From: Sandaracinaceae bacterium
Lineage (GTDB): Bacteria; Myxococcota_A; Polyangia; Polyangiales; Houyiibacteriaceae
DNA: 64,000 nt
Assembly (NCBI GenBank): GCA_020633075.1
Contig: JACKEI010000008.1
Span: 21,360-85,359 of the forward strand
Direction of reading: 5' to 3'
Shown: piece by piece, positions 4,211-63,309 of the stretch
How the letters are laid out: every line of letters starts with the position of its first letter
How positions within the stretch are numbered: position 1 is the stretch's first letter
The notes under the pieces: generated by a model
What the model saw: only the letters and a program-made list of their open reading frames with translations
Told to the model about the DNA's origin: nothing
Databases searched by the model: none
Position numbers and translations under genes: made by a program

Positions 4211-6412
4211 ATGACCCAGCCGAGCCTCCCCCGCCCCACGGGCCGCCTTCGCGCGCGCCTGACCTTCGGCTGTGTCGCACTCGCCCTGGGGCTGCCGGGC
4301 AGCCTCGTCCTCTCGCCAGCCATCACGGCGGCTCAGAGCATCGCCGATGGCCCCGTGCAGGTGCAGCTGCGCGTGCGGGAGATCCGCACCACGGGAACTT
4401 CCACCGACCTAGCTTTCTTCGGCGTCGTCGGCGTCCCCGACGAGCAGACGTACTTCGTGCGTGCGCGGGACGCGAGCGATCTCGACGGTGCCGACTGGAC
4501 GGCTGGCACGGGCTGCATCACGCACAACTTCGACCCCCCCACCGTGACGCCCGACATCGGGACGGTGCTCTTCGACCACGTGTACCCGAGCGCCACACCC
4601 GACCGGCTTCAGATCGCGGTGGACGCCTGGGAAGACGACGCGCCGGACCAGCTGCTGGGCATCGCCTGCGGCGGCACGCGCTGCAGCTACGACACGGGCT
4701 TCTGCTGCGGTGGGTTCTTGTTCGGGAGCTGCCTCGGCGCCATCGACGACGACGACCTGCACTGCAACGCCGCTCCCTTCGCCGACATCGACTACCGGCT
4801 CGGCGACGCCTGCACGATCTACGACCACGGGTTCGTCAGCTCGCCCGTCGGAGGAAACTGCAGCCTCTACCAGCCGCGCATCGAGACCTTCTGGCGCTAC
4901 GCCAACGGCGACACCTTCGCGGCCCCCGTGGAGCTGGGCGCGCTCGCCGAGCTCGGCACGATTACCCACCAAAACAGTACGTCGACGAACTGCTACAGCG
5001 ACACCGACGCTGGCTCGGCGACCCCGGACATGTTCGCAGCGGTCGACGTGCCGGCTTCGCGCAGCGTCCGCGTGCGGGTGTGCACGGCGGGCGCGGGTCC
5101 GGGCATCGCCGTGTTCGACGGAGGCGGAACTCTCCTGGCCAGCAGCGCGGATGGCTGCATGCAACCCGTCGAGCTGGTGGCGTGCGCGGGGCGCTTGGTG
5201 GTCCGCGTGGACGCGGTCTCCGCAGCGGGCGAAACGTTCACGCTCACCGTGAGTGACTTGCCGGGCGTCAGCTACCCACTGGCGCAGTGCTGCGGCGGTG
5301 GGACCCCGGACCGCGGCGAAGACTGCGACGACGGCAACGCGGACGACACGGACACCTGCCGCAACAACTGCGAGAGCGCGCGCTGCGGAGACGGCGTTAT
5401 CCAGGCCGGTGTCGACACCTGCGATGACGGCCCCCTCAATGGCCTCCCGAATCAGTGCAACCTGACTTGCACGGGGAACACCCCCGCCACGTGCGGCAAC
5501 GGCGCGGTCGAAGTTGGAGAGAGCTGCGATGACGGTGCGAACAACGGCATGCCCAACAGCTGCGCCGCGGACTGCGGCGGACTGACCCCAGCCGTGTGCG
5601 GCAACGGAGTGACCGAGGTCGGCGAGCCATGCGACGACGGGACCGCGACGGCTGCATGCGACGCAGACTGCAGCATGGTGGTGTGCGGCGACGGAACCGT
5701 GAACGCGGCGGCCGGCGAGAGCTGCGACGACGGCGTCGACAACGGCACTCCGACGAACTGCAACTCGAGCTGCACCGGCGCCACACCCGCAACTTGCGGA
5801 AACGGAGCCGTGGAGAGCGGTGAGGCGTGCGACGACGCAGGGGAGTCGGCGACCTGCAACAGCGACTGCAGCACGGCTGCGTGCGGCGACGGCGTCCTGA
5901 ACGCCAGCGCCAGCGAAACCTGCGATGACGGCGCGGACAACGGGATGCCCGCGCGCTGTGCGCTGGACTGCTCCGGCGTGACCGCCAGCAGCTGCGGCAA
6001 CGGCGTGGTCGAGGTGGGTGAGCTCTGCGACACCGCCGGTGCGAGCGCTACCTGTGACGCCGACTGCACCATGGTCGTCTGCGGCGACGCAGAGGTGAAC
6101 TCGGCCGCGGGGGAGCTCTGCGATGACGGATCGGACAACGGGATGCCCGGGCGCTGCGCGGTGGACTGCGCGGGTCGCACCGCCCCCCGCTGCGGCGACG
6201 GCGCGCTCGACGCAGGCGAGGCCTGTGACGAAGGCAGCGACAACGGCACCGCCGACGGCGCCTGCAGCAGCAGCTGTCAGCTGGTGCTGCCGGCGCGCCT
6301 GAGCGGAGGCGCGTGCGCGCTGGTGCCTGGGTCCGCGACGCCGGGGTGGCCGCTGGGGCTAGCCGGGCTCGTGGGCGTAGGCTTCGTGTGGCGCCGCCGC
6401 CGCGCGCGCTGA
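4211..6412 (+). CDS. Secreted Cys-rich repeat protein with a MYXO-CTERM-like C-terminal sorting tail
   Basis: It begins with a signal peptide (RLRARLTFGCVALALGLPGSLVLSPAITAAQS). A ~350-aa N-terminal region follows and ends in a PPC-like beta-sandwich segment. Next come about 10 copies of a CG(N/D)G..E.GE.CDDG..NG.P..C...C unit. The tail is GGACALVPGS...LAGLVGVGFVWRRRRAR (Cys, then a hydrophobic helix, then an Arg cluster). A GAGGAA Shine-Dalgarno lies 5 nt before the ATG. Confidence 0.85.
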   Translation: MTQPSLPRPTGRLRARLTFGCVALALGLPGSLVLSPAITAAQSIADGPVQVQLRVREIRTTGTSTDLAFFGVVGVPDEQTYFVRARDASDLDGADWTAGTGCITHNFDPPTVTPDIGTVLFDHVYPSATPDRLQIAVDAWEDDAPDQLLGIACGGTRCSYDTGFCCGGFLFGSCLGAIDDDDLHCNAAPFADIDYRLGDACTIYDHGFVSSPVGGNCSLYQPRIETFWRYANGDTFAAPVELGALAELGTITHQNSTSTNCYSDTDAGSATPDMFAAVDVPASRSVRVRVCTAGAGPGIAVFDGGGTLLASSADGCMQPVELVACAGRLVVRVDAVSAAGETFTLTVSDLPGVSYPLAQCCGGGTPDRGEDCDDGNADDTDTCRNNCESARCGDGVIQAGVDTCDDGPLNGLPNQCNLTCTGNTPATCGNGAVEVGESCDDGANNGMPNSCAADCGGLTPAVCGNGVTEVGEPCDDGTATAACDADCSMVVCGDGTVNAAAGESCDDGVDNGTPTNCNSSCTGATPATCGNGAVESGEACDDAGESATCNSDCSTAACGDGVLNASASETCDDGADNGMPARCALDCSGVTASSCGNGVVEVGELCDTAGASATCDADCTMVVCGDAEVNSAAGELCDDGSDNGMPGRCAVDCAGRTAPRCGDGALDAGEACDEGSDNGTADGACSSSCQLVLPARLSGGACALVPGSATPGWPLGLAGLVGVGFVWRRRRAR
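5288..6286 (+). repeat. In-frame coding array of ~10 imperfect 29-37-codon Cys-rich repeats (Myxococcus-type cysteine-rich repeat)
   Basis: The motif CGNGAVEVGESCDDGANNGMPNSCAADCGG and its variants recur through the translation of 4211..6412. The repeats are imperfect at the DNA level. Confidence 0.8.
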
Positions 6413-55569: not shown

Positions 55570-56730
55570 CTACGGGAGCCCCCCCGGCAGGATGCTGATG
55601 GGCGCGAGGCGCACGGCGCAGCGCGGGGCGTCGCCCGATACGTCGCAGTAGCCCATGAAGCCGGGCAAGTTGACGACGCAGGGGTCCACCCCCCCCACGC
55701 AGGTGTTGCCGAGGCAGATCGCCGGCGCGCAGGGGCTGCCGAAGTCCGCGCAGTTGTCGGGGCACCCCTCCGAGTAGTCGCAGTAGCCGGTGTCGACGTC
55801 GCAGACGCCTCCGTCCAAGCAGGGGAGCACCTGCACGCCGTCTTCGCAGCCTGTGGGAAGGCAGACGGGCGCGGTGCACTCCGTGTCGGTCGCGATGCTG
55901 CGACACACGCTGTCGCTCAGCTGTCGAACGCAGCCGGAGCCGTCGTCGCTGACGTTGGGATCTTCGGGCGCGCAGCGTTCGAGTGTGCACAGCACGCCGT
56001 CGTCACAGATGGCGTCCACGTTGCGCTTCATGCAGGTGCCGGTGCGCGTCTGCGTGTTGAGGACGCACGTGTTCTCCGTGCATTCGATGCCGTCCTCGCA
56101 GAGCTCGTCGTACGGGACGGGTGTGCCGCACATGCCGTTGGGCATGCACTCGGAGATGGCGCAGCTGGGGTTGGCCGTGCTGTTGCACCGGCGGCTGTCG
56201 GGCACGTACACGCACGCCCCGTTGGCGCATCCGCCGATCAGACACTGGCCGATTTGGTCGGCGCAGACGACGGCCGGGCCGCGCACACACATCTCGTCCA
56301 CGCACGAGAAGAGGCCTCCGCAGTCCGGTGGACCGCAGTCCCGCGCGGTGCTGCAGCTGCGCTGCTGGCAGCCCTCCCCGGCAACACACAGGCCCGTGTC
56401 GCAGGCGCTGTCGTCGGGAGTATAGCGGCAGCCGAGGACGGGGTGGCACTCGTCCACCGTGCAGTCCACGCCGTCGTCGCAGTTCATGATGGCGTCCGTG
56501 CTGACGCAGGCGTGGTCCACGCAGAGCTCGGCGCCGTTGCAGACGTTCCCGTCATCGCACTGGATGTCGTCCACGCAGCCGTTGACGCCGGTGTCGTTGC
56601 CTCCCGTGCCGGCGTCGCTGCCGCTCCCCTCGCGGGTCTGAGTGTCCAAGACCAGCCCGCAGCCTGAGGCCAAAATGGCACAGACAGAGGCAACCCACAT
56701 CCAAGTAAAGCGGTTCACAGCACCTTCCAT
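55570..56730 (-). CDS. Extremely Cys-rich putative lipoprotein
   Basis: The lipobox is MEGAVNRFTWMWVASVCAILASGC. The mature part has roughly one Cys every 6 residues, with recurring CDDG..C(N/T)..E.C-type units (CDDGNVCNGAELC, CDDGVDCTVDEC, CEDGIECTENTC, CDDGVLCTLERC). I chose the ATG at 56730; the ORF-track start at 56757 is TTG. Confidence 0.7.
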   Translation of the reverse strand: MEGAVNRFTWMWVASVCAILASGCGLVLDTQTREGSGSDAGTGGNDTGVNGCVDDIQCDDGNVCNGAELCVDHACVSTDAIMNCDDGVDCTVDECHPVLGCRYTPDDSACDTGLCVAGEGCQQRSCSTARDCGPPDCGGLFSCVDEMCVRGPAVVCADQIGQCLIGGCANGACVYVPDSRRCNSTANPSCAISECMPNGMCGTPVPYDELCEDGIECTENTCVLNTQTRTGTCMKRNVDAICDDGVLCTLERCAPEDPNVSDDGSGCVRQLSDSVCRSIATDTECTAPVCLPTGCEDGVQVLPCLDGGVCDVDTGYCDYSEGCPDNCADFGSPCAPAICLGNTCVGGVDPCVVNLPGFMGYCDVSGDAPRCAVRLAPISILPGGLP

Positions 56731-56776
56731 AATGCCGCTGTGGCGGGTCAACGCCAAGTGGGTGCCCCAAAATTGC

Positions 56777-57103
56777 TCAGTAGGCCTTCGGCAGCTTCGA
56801 CGTGTCCATGTGGTCGAGGGCGAAGCGAATCAGGCCGCTGCGGCTCATCTTGGTGTGCCCGGAGGCCTTCAGACGGGCCACCTCGGCGTCCAGGCGGCTC
56901 AGGTCGTCGCGGTACATGGAGATGCAGAGCACCTCGTAGTGCGTGGGCTTGGGCTTGGCCTTGCGCTTGGCCTTCACCAGCGGCTTCTGGACCGGCTTGG
57001 GGACTGCGGCGGGGCTGGGCTTGTAGAACGCCTCGCGGAGTACCTCGCGGACCTCGTCGCCCTCGAAGAGTTCGTCCATCGCGCGTGCCGGTTCGTTGCT
57101 CAT
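56777..57103 (-). CDS. Small basic-tailed ribbon-helix-helix-like DNA-binding protein (ParG-like partner of the upstream ATPase)
   Basis: 108 aa counted from the ATG at 57103, which is preceded by GAAGGAGAA. It starts 13 bp after the ATPase stop. An acidic N-terminus and a Lys/Pro tract (KPVQKPLVKAKRKAKPKP) are followed by an RHH pattern: beta strand VLCISMY, helix DDLSRLDAEVARLKASG, helix SRSGLIRFALDHM. Confidence 0.6.
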   Translation of the reverse strand: MSNEPARAMDELFEGDEVREVLREAFYKPSPAAVPKPVQKPLVKAKRKAKPKPTHYEVLCISMYRDDLSRLDAEVARLKASGHTKMSRSGLIRFALDHMDTSKLPKAY

Positions 57104-57116
57104 TCTGTTCTCCTTC

Positions 57117-58274
57117 TCAGGCCGAAGCGGCCATCCCGTGGAAGTCCGCTGGGCTGCCAAGGGCGGGACGCTCGGTCACGGCCATGACGTGCTGAACCAG
57201 CTGTCGGTAGTCCGTCGCGCCGTGGCACTCGGGGTCGTATTCAAAGATGCTCTGCTTGGCCGTGGGGGCCTCGCGTAGGCGCGTGTTCACCCGGATGGGC
57301 GGCAGACACTTCTCGCCGAAGTGCTTGCGCAGCGCCTCCACGGCGTCCCGCGCCACACGGTTGCGGGCGTCGTAGAAGGTGGGCAGCACACCCACGATGT
57401 CCACGTCGTGCTTCAAGAGCTCGCGCACGTTGCGCAGCGTCTTCAACACCTGCTTCACGCCCACCAGCGACAGGTAGTCGCACGACACGGGCACGATGAC
57501 GCTGTCCGCGTACACCAGCGCGTTCTGGTTCATGAGCGAGAGGGCCGGCGCGCAGTCCAGCACCACCACGTCATAGGCGTCGCCGAGCGTGCCGAGGCGC
57601 TCGCGCAGCACGCGGTCGCGGCCCGTGCGCTGAGCGAGGTGCAGCTCGGCCGCGGCCAGCGACTCGTTGGACGTGATCACGTCGAGGCCCTTGCGCACCG
57701 GGATGGCGGCCTCTTCGGGGGCCAGACCGTGCACCAGCACGTGGTAGAGGGTCTTCTCGCCGCGGATACCGAGCGACGCGCCAACGTTGCCCTGCCCGTC
57801 CGCGTCCACCAGCAAGACGTTGTAGCCAGCCTCGGCCAGCCCGGCCGCGAGGTTCACGGACGTGGTGGTCTTGCCCGTGCCGCCCTTGTGGTTGAACACC
57901 GCGATGCGACGCACCACACGGGGCGGCGCGATCAGCCCGCTGCCGGTCTCCTGGCGCTCGACCGCCGCGGTGCGGCACTCCGTGGAGCAGTAGTAGCGGC
58001 GCTCGCCGTCGGTGACGGCCGCCTGAAAGGGGTACTCCAGCTGGAAGCTGCGCGCGCACACGTCACACACGCAGCCGGGCTCGCTCGCTGCGGGGCCATG
58101 CCCGTCGTGGTGGTTGCCCGCCCGCTCGGCGTCGACCGCGCCGGAGAGCAGGCGCTGCTGGCAGACCATCGAGCACACGTACACGAACGAGCCAGCTTCC
58201 TCGCGGACCTGGTAGCGAAAGCGCACTTCGAAGTCGCGCTCGCACACGCGACAGACACCATGAGGTGACGACAT
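57117..58274 (-). CDS. ParA/MinD-family P-loop ATPase with two N-terminal TRASH/FCS-type zinc ribbons
   Basis: There are two copies of C-X2-C-X22-C-X3-C: CRVC...VCSMVC and CDVC...YCSTEC. The deviant Walker A is FNHKGGTGKTTT, Walker A' is LLVDADGQGN and Walker B is VVVLDCAP. The start is the ATG at 58274 (MSSPHGV); the 458-aa ORF-track entry is a read-through into the repeat field. Confidence 0.85.
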   Translation of the reverse strand: MSSPHGVCRVCERDFEVRFRYQVREEAGSFVYVCSMVCQQRLLSGAVDAERAGNHHDGHGPAASEPGCVCDVCARSFQLEYPFQAAVTDGERRYYCSTECRTAAVERQETGSGLIAPPRVVRRIAVFNHKGGTGKTTTSVNLAAGLAEAGYNVLLVDADGQGNVGASLGIRGEKTLYHVLVHGLAPEEAAIPVRKGLDVITSNESLAAAELHLAQRTGRDRVLRERLGTLGDAYDVVVLDCAPALSLMNQNALVYADSVIVPVSCDYLSLVGVKQVLKTLRNVRELLKHDVDIVGVLPTFYDARNRVARDAVEALRKHFGEKCLPPIRVNTRLREAPTAKQSIFEYDPECHGATDYRQLVQHVMAVTERPALGSPADFHGMAASA

Positions 58275-58380
58275 GAGTCCTCGTTGCTCCGTTGCAGAGG
58301 CAGTTAATGAAACGCCTCTCTCATCCGGTAGTTCACCCGGGGGGCGCTGGTCAAAAAACCTGCAAGCCCAACTGCGAGAC

Positions 58381-58521
58381 GCCGGCGGGGGGCGGGCCTC
58401 CGCGAGGGCCCGGTCGCGCAGGCGCTCCCTGCGGTGCCTCCGCCCAATTCGGCGTGTCGTTGCACGACACTTGAATTGGGGCCCCCCCGACACCCTTCGC
58501 CGAGGCCCGCCCCCCGCCGGC
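58381..58521. repeat. Palindromic GC-rich element, copy A (141 bp)
   Basis: The terminal arms are a perfect 20-bp inverted repeat: GCCGGCGGGGGGCGGGCCTC at 58381-58400 and its reverse complement at 58502-58521. The core is CCCAATTCGGCG-[GTGTCGT tgc ACGACAC]-TTGAATTGGGGCCCCCCC. Confidence 0.85.
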
Positions 58522-58549
58522 TCTCACCTGAGCCCATTGGTTGCTCGAC

Positions 58550-58676
58550 TGGCCTCGACGGGTGCTCTCCGGGGTCGTTCGTGCTCGGGTGGGGGGACAC
58601 GAGTGGCCTCGACGGGTGCGCTTGGTGCGTGCCGGGCTCGGAGGGCTTGGAGGGCTCGGCTGATGCGCTTGGTGCG
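58550..58676 (+). repeat. Short perfect direct repeats in non-coding DNA
   Basis: TGGCCTCGACGGGTGC occurs at 58550-58565 and 58604-58619. TGCGCTTGGTGCG occurs at 58617-58629 and 58664-58676. GGGCTCG occurs at 58634 and 58652. Confidence 0.8.
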
Positions 58677-58704
58677 CGCGAGGCGGCCCGTGGGCTCGCC
58701 CGAC

Positions 58705-58724
58705 CTCAGCTGAGCTCAGCTGAG
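58705..58724. repeat. Tandem duplication of the self-complementary decamer CTCAGCTGAG
   Basis: CTCAGCTGAGCTCAGCTGAG, read directly. Each unit is its own reverse complement and the period is 10 bp. Confidence 0.85.
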
Positions 58725-58794
58725 CACCCCCACGCGCCCGAGGACACGGACGGGCTCGACCCCGAGCCCCCCGCGCATCCTCCAGGCGCACGCG

Positions 58795-58941
58795 GGAGGG
58801 GGCGCGGGGGCAGGTCCCAGCAAGGGGATTGGGGGGGCCCTAATTCAAGCGTCGCTGCGCGACGCGCCGAATTGGGGGAGGAACCAGAGGGAGCGCCAGC
58901 GCGACCGGCCCCGCCGCGGGACCTGCCCCCGCGCCCCCTCC
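58795..58941. repeat. Palindromic GC-rich element, copy B (147 bp), inverted relative to copy A
   Basis: The terminal arms are a perfect 24-bp inverted repeat: GGAGGGGGCGCGGGGGCAGGTCCC at 58795-58818 and its reverse complement at 58918-58941. The reverse complement of the core reads CCCAATTCGGCG-[GCGTCGC gca GCGACGC]-TTGAATTAGGGCCCCCCC, which is collinear with copy A. Confidence 0.85.
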
Positions 58942-58972
58942 TCACGATCACGCCCGGATCACCCGGTGAGCC

Positions 58973-60876
58973 CTACAGGTCGAGCTCGTCCGCGTCCGCC
59001 TGTTGGGCGCGCTCCATGATGAACTCGTACCGGCTCTGCGGGTCCTTGCCCATCAGCTGGCTGATGACCGTCTCGGCCTCGAGCGCGTCCTCGATGGTCA
59101 CCCGCAGCGCGCGGCGCTGCCGCTTGTCCAGCGTGGTCTCCTTGAGGTCGCTGGCAGGCATCTCGCCCAATCCCTTGAAGCGGCTGATGTCGGGCTTCAC
59201 GTTGCGCGGCAGGCCCTTCAGGATCTTGTCGCGCTGCTGCTCGTCCAGAGCCCAGTAGGTCTCCTTGCCCGCGTCGATGCGGAAGAGGGGCGGCTGCGCC
59301 AGGAAGATGTGCCCGTTGCGGATGAGCGACGGCATCTTGCGGTAGAAGAAGGTCAGCAGCAGCGTGGCGATGTGGTGCCCGTCGCTGTCGGCGTCCATCA
59401 GCAGGAAGACGCGGCCGTAGCGCAGCTTGGTGATGTCGAAGCCCTTGCCGATGCCGGTGCCCAGGGCGCTGACGATGTTCTGCAGCTCCTTGTTGGCCAG
59501 CACCTGCGCGTCCGTGGCACGCTCGGCGTTCAACACCTTGCCGCGCAGCGGCAGGATGGCCTGCGTGCGCCGGTCGCGCGCGGCCTTGGCGTTGCCACCG
59601 GCCGAGTCACCCTCGACCAGGAACAGCTCGCAGTCCGCCGGGTCGGTGCTGGCGCAGTCGCTCAGCTTGCCGGGCAGGTTCAGGCGGTGACTGACCGCCG
59701 TCTTGCGGCTGACCTGCGCGCTGGCGGCGCGGCTGGCTTGACGCGCACGCGCCGAGATGATGATGCGCGCGACGATGGCCTCGGCAGCCGACGAGTTGTT
59801 GTGCAACCACTGCTCGAGGGCCGTGCGCACCGCGTTCTCGATGGGGGCCGTGACCTCGGCGTTGTTCAGGCGGTCCTTGGTCTGCCCCTGGAACTGCGGC
59901 TCGCTCACGTACGCGCTGACCAGCGCCACCACGCCCTCGCGGATGTCCTCCGCGACGATCTTGAGGCCCTTGGGCGCGATGTTGTGCGCGTCCATGTAGC
60001 CACGGATGGCCTTGTTCACGGCCTGCTTGAAGCCGTTCTCGTGCGTGCCGCCGTTGGTGGTGGGGATGCCGTTGGCGTAGCTCTTGATGAGCTCGTCGGT
60101 GCCCTCGGTCCACTGCAGCGCCACCTCGATGCGCGGGTCCCCCTCGCGCTCGTAGGTGAAGGCCACCGGGTGGATGGCGGGCTTCTTGCGCTGCGCCACC
60201 AGCTTGGTGAGGAAGTCCGCGATGCCGTTCGGGTGGTGGAACTCCTCGCGCGTGCCGTCCTTCTCGAAGCGCAGCACGATCTTGAGGCCGCGGTGCAGGT
60301 AGCTGGTGGCCTCCAGGCGCTCGCGGATGCGGTCGGGCTCGAAGGCCCCGCTCTTGCCGAAGATCTGCGGGTCCGGCTTGAAGTAGATCTCGGTGCCCTT
60401 CTTGCGCGCCTCGCCGATCCGCTTGACCGGCGCCTGCGGCACGCCCCGCTCGTACGTCTGGCGGTACTCGCTTCCGTCACGGCAGATGGTGGCCTCGAGG
60501 TGTTCGCTCAGCGCGTTCACCACCGACGAGCCCACGCCGTGCAGACCGCCCGACACCGCGTAGCCCTTGCCGCCGAACTTGCCGCCCGCGTGCAGCGTGC
60601 AGAGGATGAGCTCGAGCGCGCTCTTCTTGAACTTGGGGTGCTTGTCCACCGGGATGCCGCGGCCGTTGTCCGACACGCGCGCGCCCTTCCAGTCCGCGTC
60701 GATGGTGACCTCGATGCGCGAGGCGTGACCGTTGATGGCCTCGTCCACGGAGTTGTCCACGATCTCCCAGAGGAGGTGGTGGTAGCCCGTGCGGTCCGTG
60801 CCGCCGATGTACATGGCCGGGCGCTTGCGCACCGGCTCGAGCCCCTCGAGGACTTCGATCTGATCTGCGGAGTAAC

Positions 60877-60880
<4 letters not shown>
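58973..60880 (-). CDS. Type IIA DNA topoisomerase ATPase (B) subunit, ParE-sized (GyrB/ParE family)
   Basis: The GHKL ATPase motifs are [26 protein letters not shown] and GGLHGVG. The Toprim motifs are [12 protein letters not shown] and [16 protein letters not shown] is also present. At 635 aa it lacks the ~170-aa insert of proteobacterial GyrB. Its ATG overlaps the A-subunit stop (ATGA). Confidence 0.9.

Positions 60881-63309
<2,429 letters not shown>

What the first reader, a model, noticed from the sequence alone, without database searches (positions are those of the whole stretch)
56777..58972. Orphan ParA-like ATPase with tandem TRASH zinc ribbons, a basic-tailed RHH partner and an upstream repeat field: candidate chromosomal type-Ib-like partition or cargo-positioning module
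Three parts sit in a row on the minus strand.
1. A 700-bp non-coding field (58275-58972) is packed with palindromes and iterated motifs.
2. A ParA/MinD ATPase follows, with an intact deviant Walker A (KGGTGKT), A' and B motifs. It has an unusual ~115-aa N-terminal extension made of two C-X2-C-X22-C-X3-C zinc ribbons.
3. Thirteen bp later, behind a strong Shine-Dalgarno, comes a 108-aa protein with an acidic head, a Lys/Pro-rich tail and a C-terminal ribbon-helix-helix-like fold.

An ATPase, a small RHH centromere-binding protein with a flexible basic tail, and upstream iterated sites together make up the layout of plasmid type Ib systems (ParF/ParG/parH). The layout also resembles McdA/McdB-type cargo positioners.

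Here there is no ParB, no plasmid or phage gene, and the neighbours are housekeeping genes. The module lies directly downstream of a topoisomerase IV-like operon and upstream of a very Cys-rich lipoprotein gene. I do not know of a described ParA-family system with a double TRASH N-terminus. The cargo (chromosome region, protein complex or other) is unknown.
Basis: partly seen in the sequence, partly recalled or inferred. Interest (0 to 1): 0.78.

Follow-up and report, generated by a model that had tools for sequence, protein, structure and literature searches.

The report
Zinc-ribbon ParA ATPase with RHH partner
A two-gene unit found across a whole order of myxobacteria pairs a Soj/ParA-type positioning ATPase that carries two N-terminal zinc ribbons with a small ribbon-helix-helix-like protein; nobody has studied it, but the 700-bp "repeat field" next to it belongs only to this lineage and is not part of the system.

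Summary
One is a 385-aa Soj-like ParA with two invariant C-X2-C-X22-C-X3-C ribbons. The other, 13 bp downstream, is a 108-aa protein with a conserved N-terminal helix motif, a basic linker and a C-terminal domain just under the Pfam RHH_1 threshold.

- **Pairing.** The two genes are adjacent in 81 of 81 assessable related loci (Sandaracinaceae/Polyangiales MAGs). They are also adjacent in a second, divergent subfamily that sits in a different gene neighbourhood. The pair is therefore the functional unit.
- **Annotation.** All homologues are named only "ParA family", "AAA ATPase" or "hypothetical". I found no paper on them.
- **Repeat field.** The 700-bp field is not conserved. Most of it is a ~550-bp foldback made of two ~155-bp inverted copies. 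The 91%-identical relative lacks it, and most relatives have only ~60-130 bp there.
- **Conserved cis element.** This is the proximal ~85 bp: a T-tract/TTGACC promoter box, then 2-5 tandem 12-bp boxes (~GCRCTTCNNNAA) around the likely transcription start.

My best reading is an autoregulated chromosomal ParA-plus-RHH positioning module. It works like type Ib or archaeal SegAB systems but is not a ParF/ParG member. The cargo is unknown. It is a new variant of a known kind.

The parts
57117..58274 (-). Zinc-ribbon ParA (ZnR-ParA) gene, 385 aa plus stop
   Evidence: Pfam AAA_31 1e-49 and CbiA 1.5e-23. Thermus Soj 1wcv E 1e-48 over residues 121-368. Full-length homologues at 58-91% identity in 80 fetched loci out of 191 tblastn-confirmed matches in the genome collection.
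58161..58253 (-). Zinc ribbon 1 (aa 8-38: C-X2-C-X22-C-X3-C, with invariant FRYQ)
   Evidence: Invariant or near-invariant Cys and F19 R20 Y21 Q22 in alignment A1. AlphaFold2 gives short beta-hairpins plus a helix at pLDDT 74-86.
57975..58067 (-). Zinc ribbon 2 (aa 70-100: C-X2-C-X22-C-X3-C)
   Evidence: C70 C73 C96 C100 are invariant. Pfam zf-FCS is sub-threshold at E 0.015. PF06467 is precomputed for about 20 of 120 homologues.
57171..57914 (-). Soj/ParA-type ATPase core (aa 121-368), with Walker A KGGTGKT, A' and B
   Evidence: Residue-by-residue alignment to Thermus Soj. The position matching the conserved Arg of Soj's NVRL motif is R here and R or K across the family.
56777..57103 (-). 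108-aa partner gene
   Evidence: Lies directly downstream of the ATPase in 81/81 assessable loci. The family has 3238 database clusters, all named 'hypothetical' and none with a Pfam domain among those listed.
57023..57064 (-). Conserved N-terminal motif of the partner (aa 14-27, EGDEVREVLREAFY); candidate ATPase-contact helix
   Evidence: D16 E17 V18 V21 L22 F26 are invariant among 19 close homologues. The (D/E)EVxxVLRxxFY pattern holds in 80 loci. AlphaFold2 predicts a helix at 16-27 with low confidence. The contact role is inferred.
56804..56941 (-). C-terminal RHH-like domain of the partner (aa 55-100)
   Evidence: Pfam RHH_1 matches 26 of 31 family members. The best score is 18.9 bits against a cut-off of 20.5, covering profile positions 4-34 of 39. 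AlphaFold2 gives helices 65-80 and 88-98 at pLDDT 85-94 after an extended segment.
58349..58358 (-). T-tract plus TTGACC: conserved -35/UP-like promoter box
   Evidence: TTTTTGAC occurs once in the 64-kb window, here. It is present upstream of the ATPase in 67 of 81 loci. It occurs only 72 times in 904 kb of fetched loci.
58280..58315 (-). Leader with three degenerate 12-bp boxes (GCGTTTCATTAA / CTGCCTCTGCAA / CGGAGCAACGAG); candidate operator or centromere-like site
   Evidence: In 23 non-redundant leaders, autocorrelation peaks only at shift 12 (0.395 against 0.254, z 9.6). The box pattern is about 17 times enriched in leaders. The proximal 85 nt are nearly identical in L086-L089 while the sequence upstream diverges. 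Binding is untested.
58376..58945 (.). Lineage-specific foldback, NOT part of the conserved module. Inverted ~155-bp copies at 58384-58534 and 58785-58935 flank a 250-bp centre with short direct repeats.
   Evidence: Absent in L086. Partly present in L088/L089, whose contigs end at (L088) or near (L089) its proximal copy. No other copy in the window or the loci. The metagenome scan gave only chance matches.

Best explanation
**What it is.** The two genes form a self-contained, vertically inherited ParA-type positioning module of Polyangiales chromosomes. It has its own conserved promoter.

**Proposed mechanism (inferred).**
1. The small protein dimerises through its RHH-like C-terminal domain.
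2. It binds the tandem 12-bp boxes that sit from just after the -10 region to about +40. This represses the operon and builds a small nucleoprotein complex.
3. Its flexible basic linker and conserved N-terminal helix reach ATP-bound dimers of the Soj-like ATPase, which are spread over the nucleoid.
4. The partner stimulates ATP hydrolysis, giving the usual ParA diffusion-ratchet that moves or positions whatever it is attached to.
5. The two zinc ribbons, tethered by variable linkers, add a function that ordinary Soj lacks. Most likely this is extra DNA or operator contact (by analogy with the N-terminal DNA-binding domain of type Ia ParA) or cargo contact.

**Shown here:** gene pairing, domain make-up, promoter and box conservation, and chromosomal, non-mobile context.

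**Inferred:** DNA binding by the partner, which protein reads the boxes, ATPase stimulation, and the cargo.
For: - **Pairing.** 81/81 assessable loci, and again in a divergent subfamily in a purH/pseudouridine-synthase context.
- **ATPase core.** About 45% identical to Thermus Soj over its whole length, with the signature Lys, catalytic Asp residues and a basic residue at the NVRL arginine position retained.
- **Partner.** Near-threshold RHH_1 matches in 26/31 members, a confident helix-helix model, a disordered basic linker and a conserved N-terminal motif.
- **Promoter box.** Present in 67/81 loci and almost unique to this position.
- **Boxes.** The 12-nt periodicity has z 9.6 across 23 non-redundant leaders, with 2-5 boxes per locus, including the perfect palindrome ATCGAAGCGCTTCGAT in L065/L068/L079.
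- **Zinc ribbons.** In a library of 1.84 billion representatives they occur almost only fused to ParA cores.
- **Context.** No ParB domain nearby. No plasmid counterpart.
Against: - No binding, ATPase or localisation data exist.
- The window's own protein does not reach RHH_1 at E <= 1, and Foldseek found no RHH match for the whole model.
- The exposed face of the predicted strand (Y-V-C-S-Y, invariant) has no basic residues, which is unusual for a DNA-reading RHH strand.
- The window has only one good box (12.7 bits) plus degenerate neighbours.
- One close relative, L006, lacks the boxed leader altogether.
- Two to five boxes look like an operator, not a full centromere. No second box cluster exists in the 64-kb window.
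- The boxes could equally be read by the zinc ribbons, or act in the 5' UTR RNA.
Confidence: 0.5

Rival explanations
1. The module positions a protein cargo or regulates cell division, like PomZ/PomXY, MipZ or McdAB. The ATPase patterns itself on the nucleoid, and the small protein is an adaptor between the ATPase and a protein complex. The 12-bp boxes would serve only for autoregulation.
For: - The pair is conserved order-wide as a housekeeping-like unit with few boxes per locus.
- The partner's strand face lacks basic residues.
- A tethered pair of zinc ribbons could be a protein-contact module; MYM/FCS fingers often are (own knowledge).
- No box cluster elsewhere in the window.
Against: - No candidate cargo gene is conserved next to the pair; neighbours differ between subfamilies.
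- McdA is a much weaker match than Soj (3e-13 against 1e-57).
- The RHH-like fold and promoter-proximal iterons point to DNA as the ligand.
Confidence: 0.2
2. The pair is purely regulatory. The RHH protein is a repressor, and the Soj-like ATPase is its co-regulator or a regulator of replication or transcription (as Soj acts on DnaA). Nothing is transported.
For: - The boxes overlap the probable transcription start, the classic repressor position.
- The ATPase core is closest to Soj, which has regulatory roles (own knowledge).
Against: - The conserved disordered tail and N-terminal motif on the partner are typical of ParA activators, not of plain repressors.
- Strict co-inheritance of an ATPase with a repressor over hundreds of species is hard to explain by autoregulation alone.
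Confidence: 0.15
3. One reading: the 700-bp repeat field (58275-58972, especially 58522-58794) is the parH-like centromere of a type Ib system.
For: - The field is highly structured (z -14).
- It contains two-copy direct repeats at 47- and 54-nt spacing.
Against: - Absent in the 91%-identical relative; the intergenic region upstream is only ~60-130 bp in the 26 parE-adjacent loci examined.
- No similarity to any other locus beyond L088/L089.
- Its repeats are explained by one inverted duplication.
- The conserved elements lie outside it.
Confidence: 0.05
4. The module has a metal-related function. The TRASH-type ribbons would sense or traffic a metal, the SIMIBI-class ATPase would act as a metallochaperone (as CooC or Mrp do), and the RHH protein would be a NikR-like metal-responsive repressor.
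For: - TRASH domains were first proposed as metal-handling modules (own knowledge).
- Cys residues are invariant across the family in the ATPase core (C241, C265, C323), as are Cys and His in the partner (C60, H83).
- Weak Pfam matches to NifH and NUBPL-type families.
Against: - The core is far closer to Soj than to any metallochaperone.
- There is no CxxC or CxC dimer-interface motif in the core.
- No metal transport or enzyme genes are conserved nearby.
Confidence: 0.05

Closest known systems
Chromosomal Soj/ParA (Thermus thermophilus Soj, PDB 1wcv; Helicobacter Soj 6iub)
   Same: The ATPase core aligns over its full length (E 1e-48 to 1e-57). The deviant Walker A, catalytic Asp residues and a basic residue at the NVRL arginine position are retained.
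   Different: It has a 115-aa N-terminal double zinc ribbon. Its partner is a ~100-aa RHH-like protein, not ParB/Spo0J. No parS or ParB lies in the neighbourhood.
Type Ib plasmid partition: ParF-ParG-parH (TP228) and delta-omega (pSM19035)
   Same: The layout matches: ATPase gene, then a small RHH-type protein with a disordered N-terminal tail, with short iterated sites in the promoter region that could serve as an operator (own knowledge of these systems). The delta protein (2oze) is a detectable relative at 1.6e-11.
   Different: - The ATPase is not ParF-like and has an extra N-terminal domain.
- The module is chromosomal and vertically inherited.
- It has only 2-5 boxes of 12 bp, rather than long arrays of 4-bp or 7-bp units.
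- There is no sequence similarity to ParG.
Type Ia ParA (P1 ParA, F SopA)
   Same: The ATPase carries an N-terminal extension. In type Ia that extension binds the operator and autoregulates the operon (own knowledge), which gives a plausible role for the zinc ribbons.
   Different: The extension is two zinc ribbons, not a helix-turn-helix. The partner is not a ParB/SopB-type protein.
Archaeal SegA-SegB (Sulfolobus); from own knowledge, not tested here
   Same: A chromosomal ParA-type ATPase is encoded with a small site-specific DNA-binding partner of RHH type. The partner's sites lie next to the operon.
   Different: It belongs to a different domain of life, shows no detectable sequence relation, and SegA has no zinc ribbons.
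CdbA of Myxococcus xanthus (PMC7156744)
   Same: It is a small, Myxococcales-restricted RHH protein involved in nucleoid organisation and segregation.
   Different: CdbA is 67 aa, tetrameric, binds c-di-GMP and is not encoded with a ParA. The PDB profile searches with the partner family returned no RHH protein at E <= 10.

Membership tests
ParA/Soj deviant Walker A ATPases | Deviant Walker A KGGxGK[ST] with the signature lysine | tested here: met
   NHKGGTGKTTT, invariant in 24 homologues.
ParA/Soj deviant Walker A ATPases | Walker A' and Walker B aspartates, and whole-domain homology to a solved Soj | tested here: met
   Aligned to Thermus Soj residues 6-247 at E 1e-48. VDADGQGN and VVLDCAP are conserved.
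ParA/Soj deviant Walker A ATPases | ATP-dependent dimerisation and non-specific DNA binding | not testable with these tools
   The only pointer is that the position matching the conserved Arg of Soj's NVRL motif stays R or K across the family.
Type Ib partition (ParF/ParG/parH, delta/omega) | Small ATPase (~200-300 aa) without an N-terminal accessory domain, of ParF or delta type | tested here: not met
   385 aa with a 115-aa double zinc ribbon. The nearest solved relative is Soj. ParF is absent from PDB matches at E <= 1e-10, and delta scores only 1.6e-11.
Type Ib partition (ParF/ParG/parH, delta/omega) | Partner is an RHH dimer with a flexible N-terminal tail | tested here: inconclusive
Type Ib partition (ParF/ParG/parH, delta/omega) | Iterated partner-binding sites upstream of the operon | tested here: inconclusive
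   Conserved 12-bp boxes in the leader (z 9.6), but only 2-5 per locus and weak in the window. Binding is untested. The 700-bp field is not conserved.
Type Ib partition (ParF/ParG/parH, delta/omega) | Carried on a plasmid or other mobile replicon that it stabilises | tested here: not met
   The context is chromosomal housekeeping genes, conserved over many species. tblastn of the N-terminus against 72,556 plasmids found nothing.
Type Ia partition (P1 ParA/ParB, F SopA/SopB) | N-terminal helix-turn-helix domain on the ATPase and a ParB/SopB-type partner | tested here: not met
   No HTH family matches the ATPase. No ParB domain in the annotated neighbours.
TRASH / zf-FCS (MYM) zinc ribbons | C-X2-C-X19-22-C-X3-C cysteine pattern | tested here: met
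   Present twice, each with X22 spacing, and conserved across the family.
TRASH / zf-FCS (MYM) zinc ribbons | Profile match above the curated threshold | tested here: not met
   zf-FCS scores 15.5 bits against 22.4 for ribbon 2 and gives no hit for ribbon 1. PF06467 is recorded for about 20 of 120 homologues.
TRASH / zf-FCS (MYM) zinc ribbons | Metal (zinc) coordination | not testable with these tools
   AlphaFold2 gives a hairpin-hairpin-helix unit at pLDDT 74-86 for each ribbon.
McdA/McdB cargo positioners | McdA-type ATPase with a McdB-type partner next to cargo (carboxysome) genes | tested here: not met
   McdA scores 3e-13 against 1e-57 for Soj. The partner is RHH-like. No conserved cargo genes lie nearby.

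The most novel reading that the evidence does not exclude
Polyangiales would carry, besides any canonical ParABS, a second order-wide chromosomal ParA machine. In it a zinc-ribbon-bearing Soj-like ATPase and an RHH adaptor actively position a specific chromosomal region or nucleoprotein body. That region would be ancestrally tied to the type IIA topoisomerase (decatenation) genes. Alternatively the machine sets the division site in lineages that lack Min/Pom-type systems. The zinc ribbons would be a new way of coupling a ParA to its target.
Probability: 0.12. Interest if true: 0.85.

Novelty: new variant of a known kind. Interest (0 to 1): 0.6.

Why it matters
ParA-family ATPases are the general bacterial solution for placing chromosomes, plasmids and large protein bodies. 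Each new partner type has revealed a new cargo or a new coupling rule. Here a large, strongly conserved and completely unannotated pair combines three things:
- a chromosomal Soj-like motor;
- a plasmid-style RHH partner;
- an N-terminal zinc-ribbon pair seen almost nowhere else.

The partner alone has thousands of database clusters and no Pfam family. Myxobacteria with very large genomes and complex cell cycles are poorly understood outside Myxococcus. A second positioning system conserved across Sandaracinaceae/Polyangiales would be a direct handle on how they organise or divide their nucleoids. The short conserved operator-like site gives an immediately testable DNA target.

Tried and rejected
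- **Rfam** on 55-60 kb at E <= 1: no RNA family.
- **hhalign** of the partner profile against CopG matched only helix B (15 columns, probability 5%).
- **PDB profile searches** with the partner returned only coiled-coil noise.
- **Foldback as a repeat family:** no other copy in the window or in 85 loci. A metagenome scan with its conserved core gave 8 unrelated low-GC chance matches. No target-site duplication was seen by eye, so I do not call it a MITE.
- **PADLOC:** only weak matches (2.2e-07, 1.2e-05) to one candidate-system family, PDC-M28B.
- **Plasmid search** with the N-terminus: no match.
- **Literature:** nothing on zinc-ribbon or TRASH ParA proteins. CdbA was considered and rejected.
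- **Withdrawn inference.** I briefly took locus L090 as a zinc-ribbon ParA without a partner, which would have assigned the boxes to the ribbons. tblastn showed that the partner is present but split over three frames.
- **GC skew** across the window shows no origin or terminus signal.
- **An RNA hairpin** around box 1 (AGAGGC...GCCUCU) is conserved only among the closest relatives, not across clades.
Full report
**Observation**

On the minus strand the window reads as follows:

| Feature | Coordinates |
|---|---|
| Type IIA topoisomerase A subunit | 63309-60877 |
| Type IIA topoisomerase B subunit | 60880-58973 |
| Intergenic region (698 bp) | 58972-58275 |
| 385-aa ATPase | 58274-57117 |
| 108-aa protein | 57103-56777 |
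| Cys-rich lipoprotein | 56757-55570 |
| guaB | 55510-54038 |
| N-acetylglutamate-synthase-like gene | 54016-52688 |

- The ATPase matches Pfam AAA_31 (1e-49) and CbiA.
- It has the deviant Walker A KGGTGKT and aligns end to end with Thermus Soj (residues 121-368 to 6-247, E 1e-48).
- The small gene starts 13 nt after the ATPase stop, behind AAGGAG.
- The topoisomerase pair passes only subfamily NCBIfam models. It fails the equivalog cut-offs for both gyrase and topo IV, so 'topo IV-like' is plausible but not shown.

**The ATPase family**

- Full-length homologues (58-91% identical, more than 90% coverage) are abundant.
- A scan of 185,579 species genomes found 191 tblastn-confirmed matches. 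The best 80 are all Sandaracinaceae, Polyangiales or Myxococcota MAGs.
- In 24 aligned members all eight ribbon cysteines and the motif FRYQ(V)REE are invariant or nearly so. The linkers between the ribbons, and between ribbon 2 and the core, vary freely.
- AlphaFold2 models each ribbon as short hairpins plus a helix at pLDDT 74-86.
- Pfam zf-FCS is sub-threshold in the window's protein but is recorded for about 20 of 120 homologues.
- I searched the 118-aa N-terminus against 1.84 billion cluster representatives. Only 63 matched, essentially all of them ParA fusions or their fragments.
- Sources name these proteins only 'ParA family', 'AAA family ATPase' or 'chromosome partitioning protein'.
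- The core's nearest solved relatives are chromosomal Soj proteins (1e-57 with the family profile). Delta of pSM19035 scores 1.6e-11 and McdA 3e-13, and ParF is absent at E <= 1e-10.

**The partner**

- The first search found 23 homologues, on the same contigs as the ATPase.
- A profile of the C-terminal domain then found 3238 clusters of ~90-105 aa. None of the listed hits has a name or a Pfam domain.
- tblastn over the fetched loci shows the partner directly downstream of the ATPase in 81 of 81 assessable, non-duplicate loci.
- A divergent subfamily (N-terminal motif FRYQMEERDGGF; the core is 42-62% identical) carries a 45%-identical partner in a different neighbourhood (sigma-factor-like gene, purH, the pair, pseudouridine synthase). 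In L090 the partner is present but split by frameshifts.
- A still more distant zinc-ribbon ParA (34% identical, L091) has no partner.
- The partner has three parts:
  - a conserved N-terminal motif, (D/E)EVxxVLRxxFY, often preceded by basic residues;
  - a variable Lys/Arg/Pro-rich linker;
  - a highly conserved C-terminus, HY-VICISxYxEDLxxLDxxVxxLKxxGHRKxSRSALIRFAL.
- Pfam RHH_1 matches 26 of 31 members just below threshold. The best score is 18.9 bits against 20.5, covering profile positions 4-34 of 39.
- AlphaFold2 gives two confident helices (65-80, 88-98) after an extended segment, and a low-confidence N-terminus.
- I therefore treat the RHH fold as likely but not proven.
- One caution: the invariant, presumably exposed strand face is Y-V-C-S-Y. 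It has no basic residue.

**The upstream region**

The 698-bp region folds far better than shuffles (z -14). That is because it holds two ~155-bp copies in inverted orientation (58384-58534 and 58785-58935, 79% identical). Each copy has an inner palindrome CCCAATTC...GAATTGGG, and together they flank 250 bp with two-copy direct repeats.

This structure is not conserved:
- In the 26 loci examined where the B-subunit gene is directly upstream, that gap is ~60-130 bp.
- The 91%-identical relative L086 has a cellulase gene upstream and a 146-bp gap.
- Only L088/L089 (88% identical) share part of the proximal copy. Their contigs end at (L088) or near (L089) it.
- No further copy exists in the window, the loci, or (by exact core pattern) a metagenome collection.

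What is conserved is the proximal ~85 nt:
- **Promoter box.** A T-tract plus TTGACC is present as exact TTTTTGAC in 67 of 81 loci. It occurs once in the 64-kb window and only 72 times in 904 kb of loci.
- **Spacing.** A ~17-nt spacer follows, then a weak, often TG-extended -10-like hexamer.
- **Boxes.** Next come 2-5 tandem 12-bp boxes of consensus GCRCTTCNNNAA. Examples are CCACTTCAGGAA-GTACTTCGATAA in the largest clade, five boxes in L061/L082, and the palindrome ATCGAAGCGCTTCGAT in L065/L068/L079.
- **Unbiased test.** Autocorrelation over 23 non-redundant leaders shows one peak, at shift 12 (0.395 against 0.254 expected, z 9.6).
- **Enrichment.** The box pattern is about 17 times enriched in leaders over background. 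That figure is partly circular, because I derived the pattern from these same leaders.
- **The window.** The boxes lie at 58315-58280. Only the first (GCGTTTCATTAA, 12.7 bits) is good. There is no other cluster in the 64 kb.
- **Exception.** L006 lacks the boxed leader.

**Context**

- The topoisomerase B-subunit gene is directly upstream in 42 loci, within 6 kb in 12, and absent in 23.
- guaB follows the partner closely in 40 loci.
- The likely ancestral order is therefore topoisomerase A, topoisomerase B, ATPase, partner, guaB. Because an unrelated gene shares the linkage and the second subfamily sits elsewhere, I read this as inherited synteny. At most it is a weak functional hint.
- The Cys-rich lipoprotein occurs only in the window's own clade (L003, L006, L086-L089) and has its own promoter-like TTGACC-N17-CATTAT. 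It is not part of the module.
- No ParB domain appears within +/-8 kb in the annotated relatives.
- PADLOC gives only weak matches (2.2e-07, 1.2e-05) to one candidate-system family, PDC-M28B.
- Plasmids hold nothing like the N-terminus.

**Interpretation**

The best-supported reading (confidence about 0.5) is an autoregulated, chromosomal, two-component ParA system.
- The RHH-like partner, or possibly the zinc ribbons, binds the 12-bp boxes on the promoter and leader.
- The partner's tail and N-terminal helix engage the nucleoid-bound Soj-like ATPase.
- ATP turnover then positions the partner-bound complex.

It works like type Ib plasmid systems and archaeal SegAB. It also borrows the type Ia idea of an N-terminal accessory domain on the ATPase.

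It is not a member of the ParF/ParG family. The ATPase type, its extra domain and its replicon context all fail the membership test.

**Novelty and verdict**

- Literature searches found no description of a zinc-ribbon or TRASH ParA, nor of this partner.
- The myxobacterial RHH protein CdbA is unrelated in sequence and in gene context.
- The finding is a real, conserved and unstudied variant of a known kind of system.
- Its most eye-catching feature in the raw sequence, the repeat field, is incidental.
- Interest: 0.6.

Noticed in passing
window 58376-58945: A ~550-bp foldback lies between the topoisomerase B-subunit stop and the ParA promoter. Two ~155-bp inverted copies (79% identical), each with an inner palindrome CCCAATTC..GAATTGGG, flank a centre with two-copy direct repeats and a perfect CTCAGCTGAG x2. 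It varies among close relatives, and its origin (mobile element or local duplication) is unresolved.
   Followed up: partly
L090 5761-5821 (and 5685-5848): About 200 nt upstream of a divergent zinc-ribbon ParA there is a 13-bp x 4.8 tandem array, GTGATCGTGCTTC, flanked by (CGCGCA)n and (CGTGCG)n runs. The unit shares GTGCTTCGTGA with the 12-bp boxes of L028 and L049, so the same recognition core may be used by both subfamilies.
   Followed up: partly
L090 7440-7720: The partner gene of this locus is readable only by joining three reading frames. This is either assembly frameshifts or a pseudogene.
   Followed up: no
window 58973-63309: The type IIA topoisomerase pair (A subunit 810 aa, then B subunit 635 aa) passes only subfamily NCBIfam models. 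It fails the equivalog cut-offs for gyrA/gyrB and for parC/parE, so its identity as topo IV or a second gyrase is open.
   Followed up: partly
window 57117-58274 and 56777-57103: Several cysteines outside the zinc ribbons are invariant across the family. They are C241 (next to Walker B), C265 and C323 in the ATPase core, and C60 on the exposed face of the partner's predicted beta-strand (with H83). No explanation was found.
   Followed up: no
window 4211-6412 (+) and 55570-56757 (-): Two Cys-rich secreted or lipoproteins. The first has 66-aa tandem repeats (CGNG..E.GE.CDDG) and a MYXO-CTERM-like tail. The second has a lipobox (LASGC) and a weak Dictyostelium CTDC-repeat match. The two share DNA-level similarity on opposite strands.
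   Followed up: partly
L006 100-142: In this 86%-identical relative the ~43-nt boxed leader is missing. The ATPase start codon follows the -10-like region almost directly, so the transcript may be leaderless or the operon deregulated.
   Followed up: no
L091 6001-7026: A more distant double-zinc-ribbon ParA (341 aa, 34% identical) is widespread in Myxococcota MAGs; one near-identical sequence in its 16-member cluster was seen on 119 contigs. It has no RHH-like partner next to it, so the ribbons are not strictly tied to the partner.
   Followed up: partly
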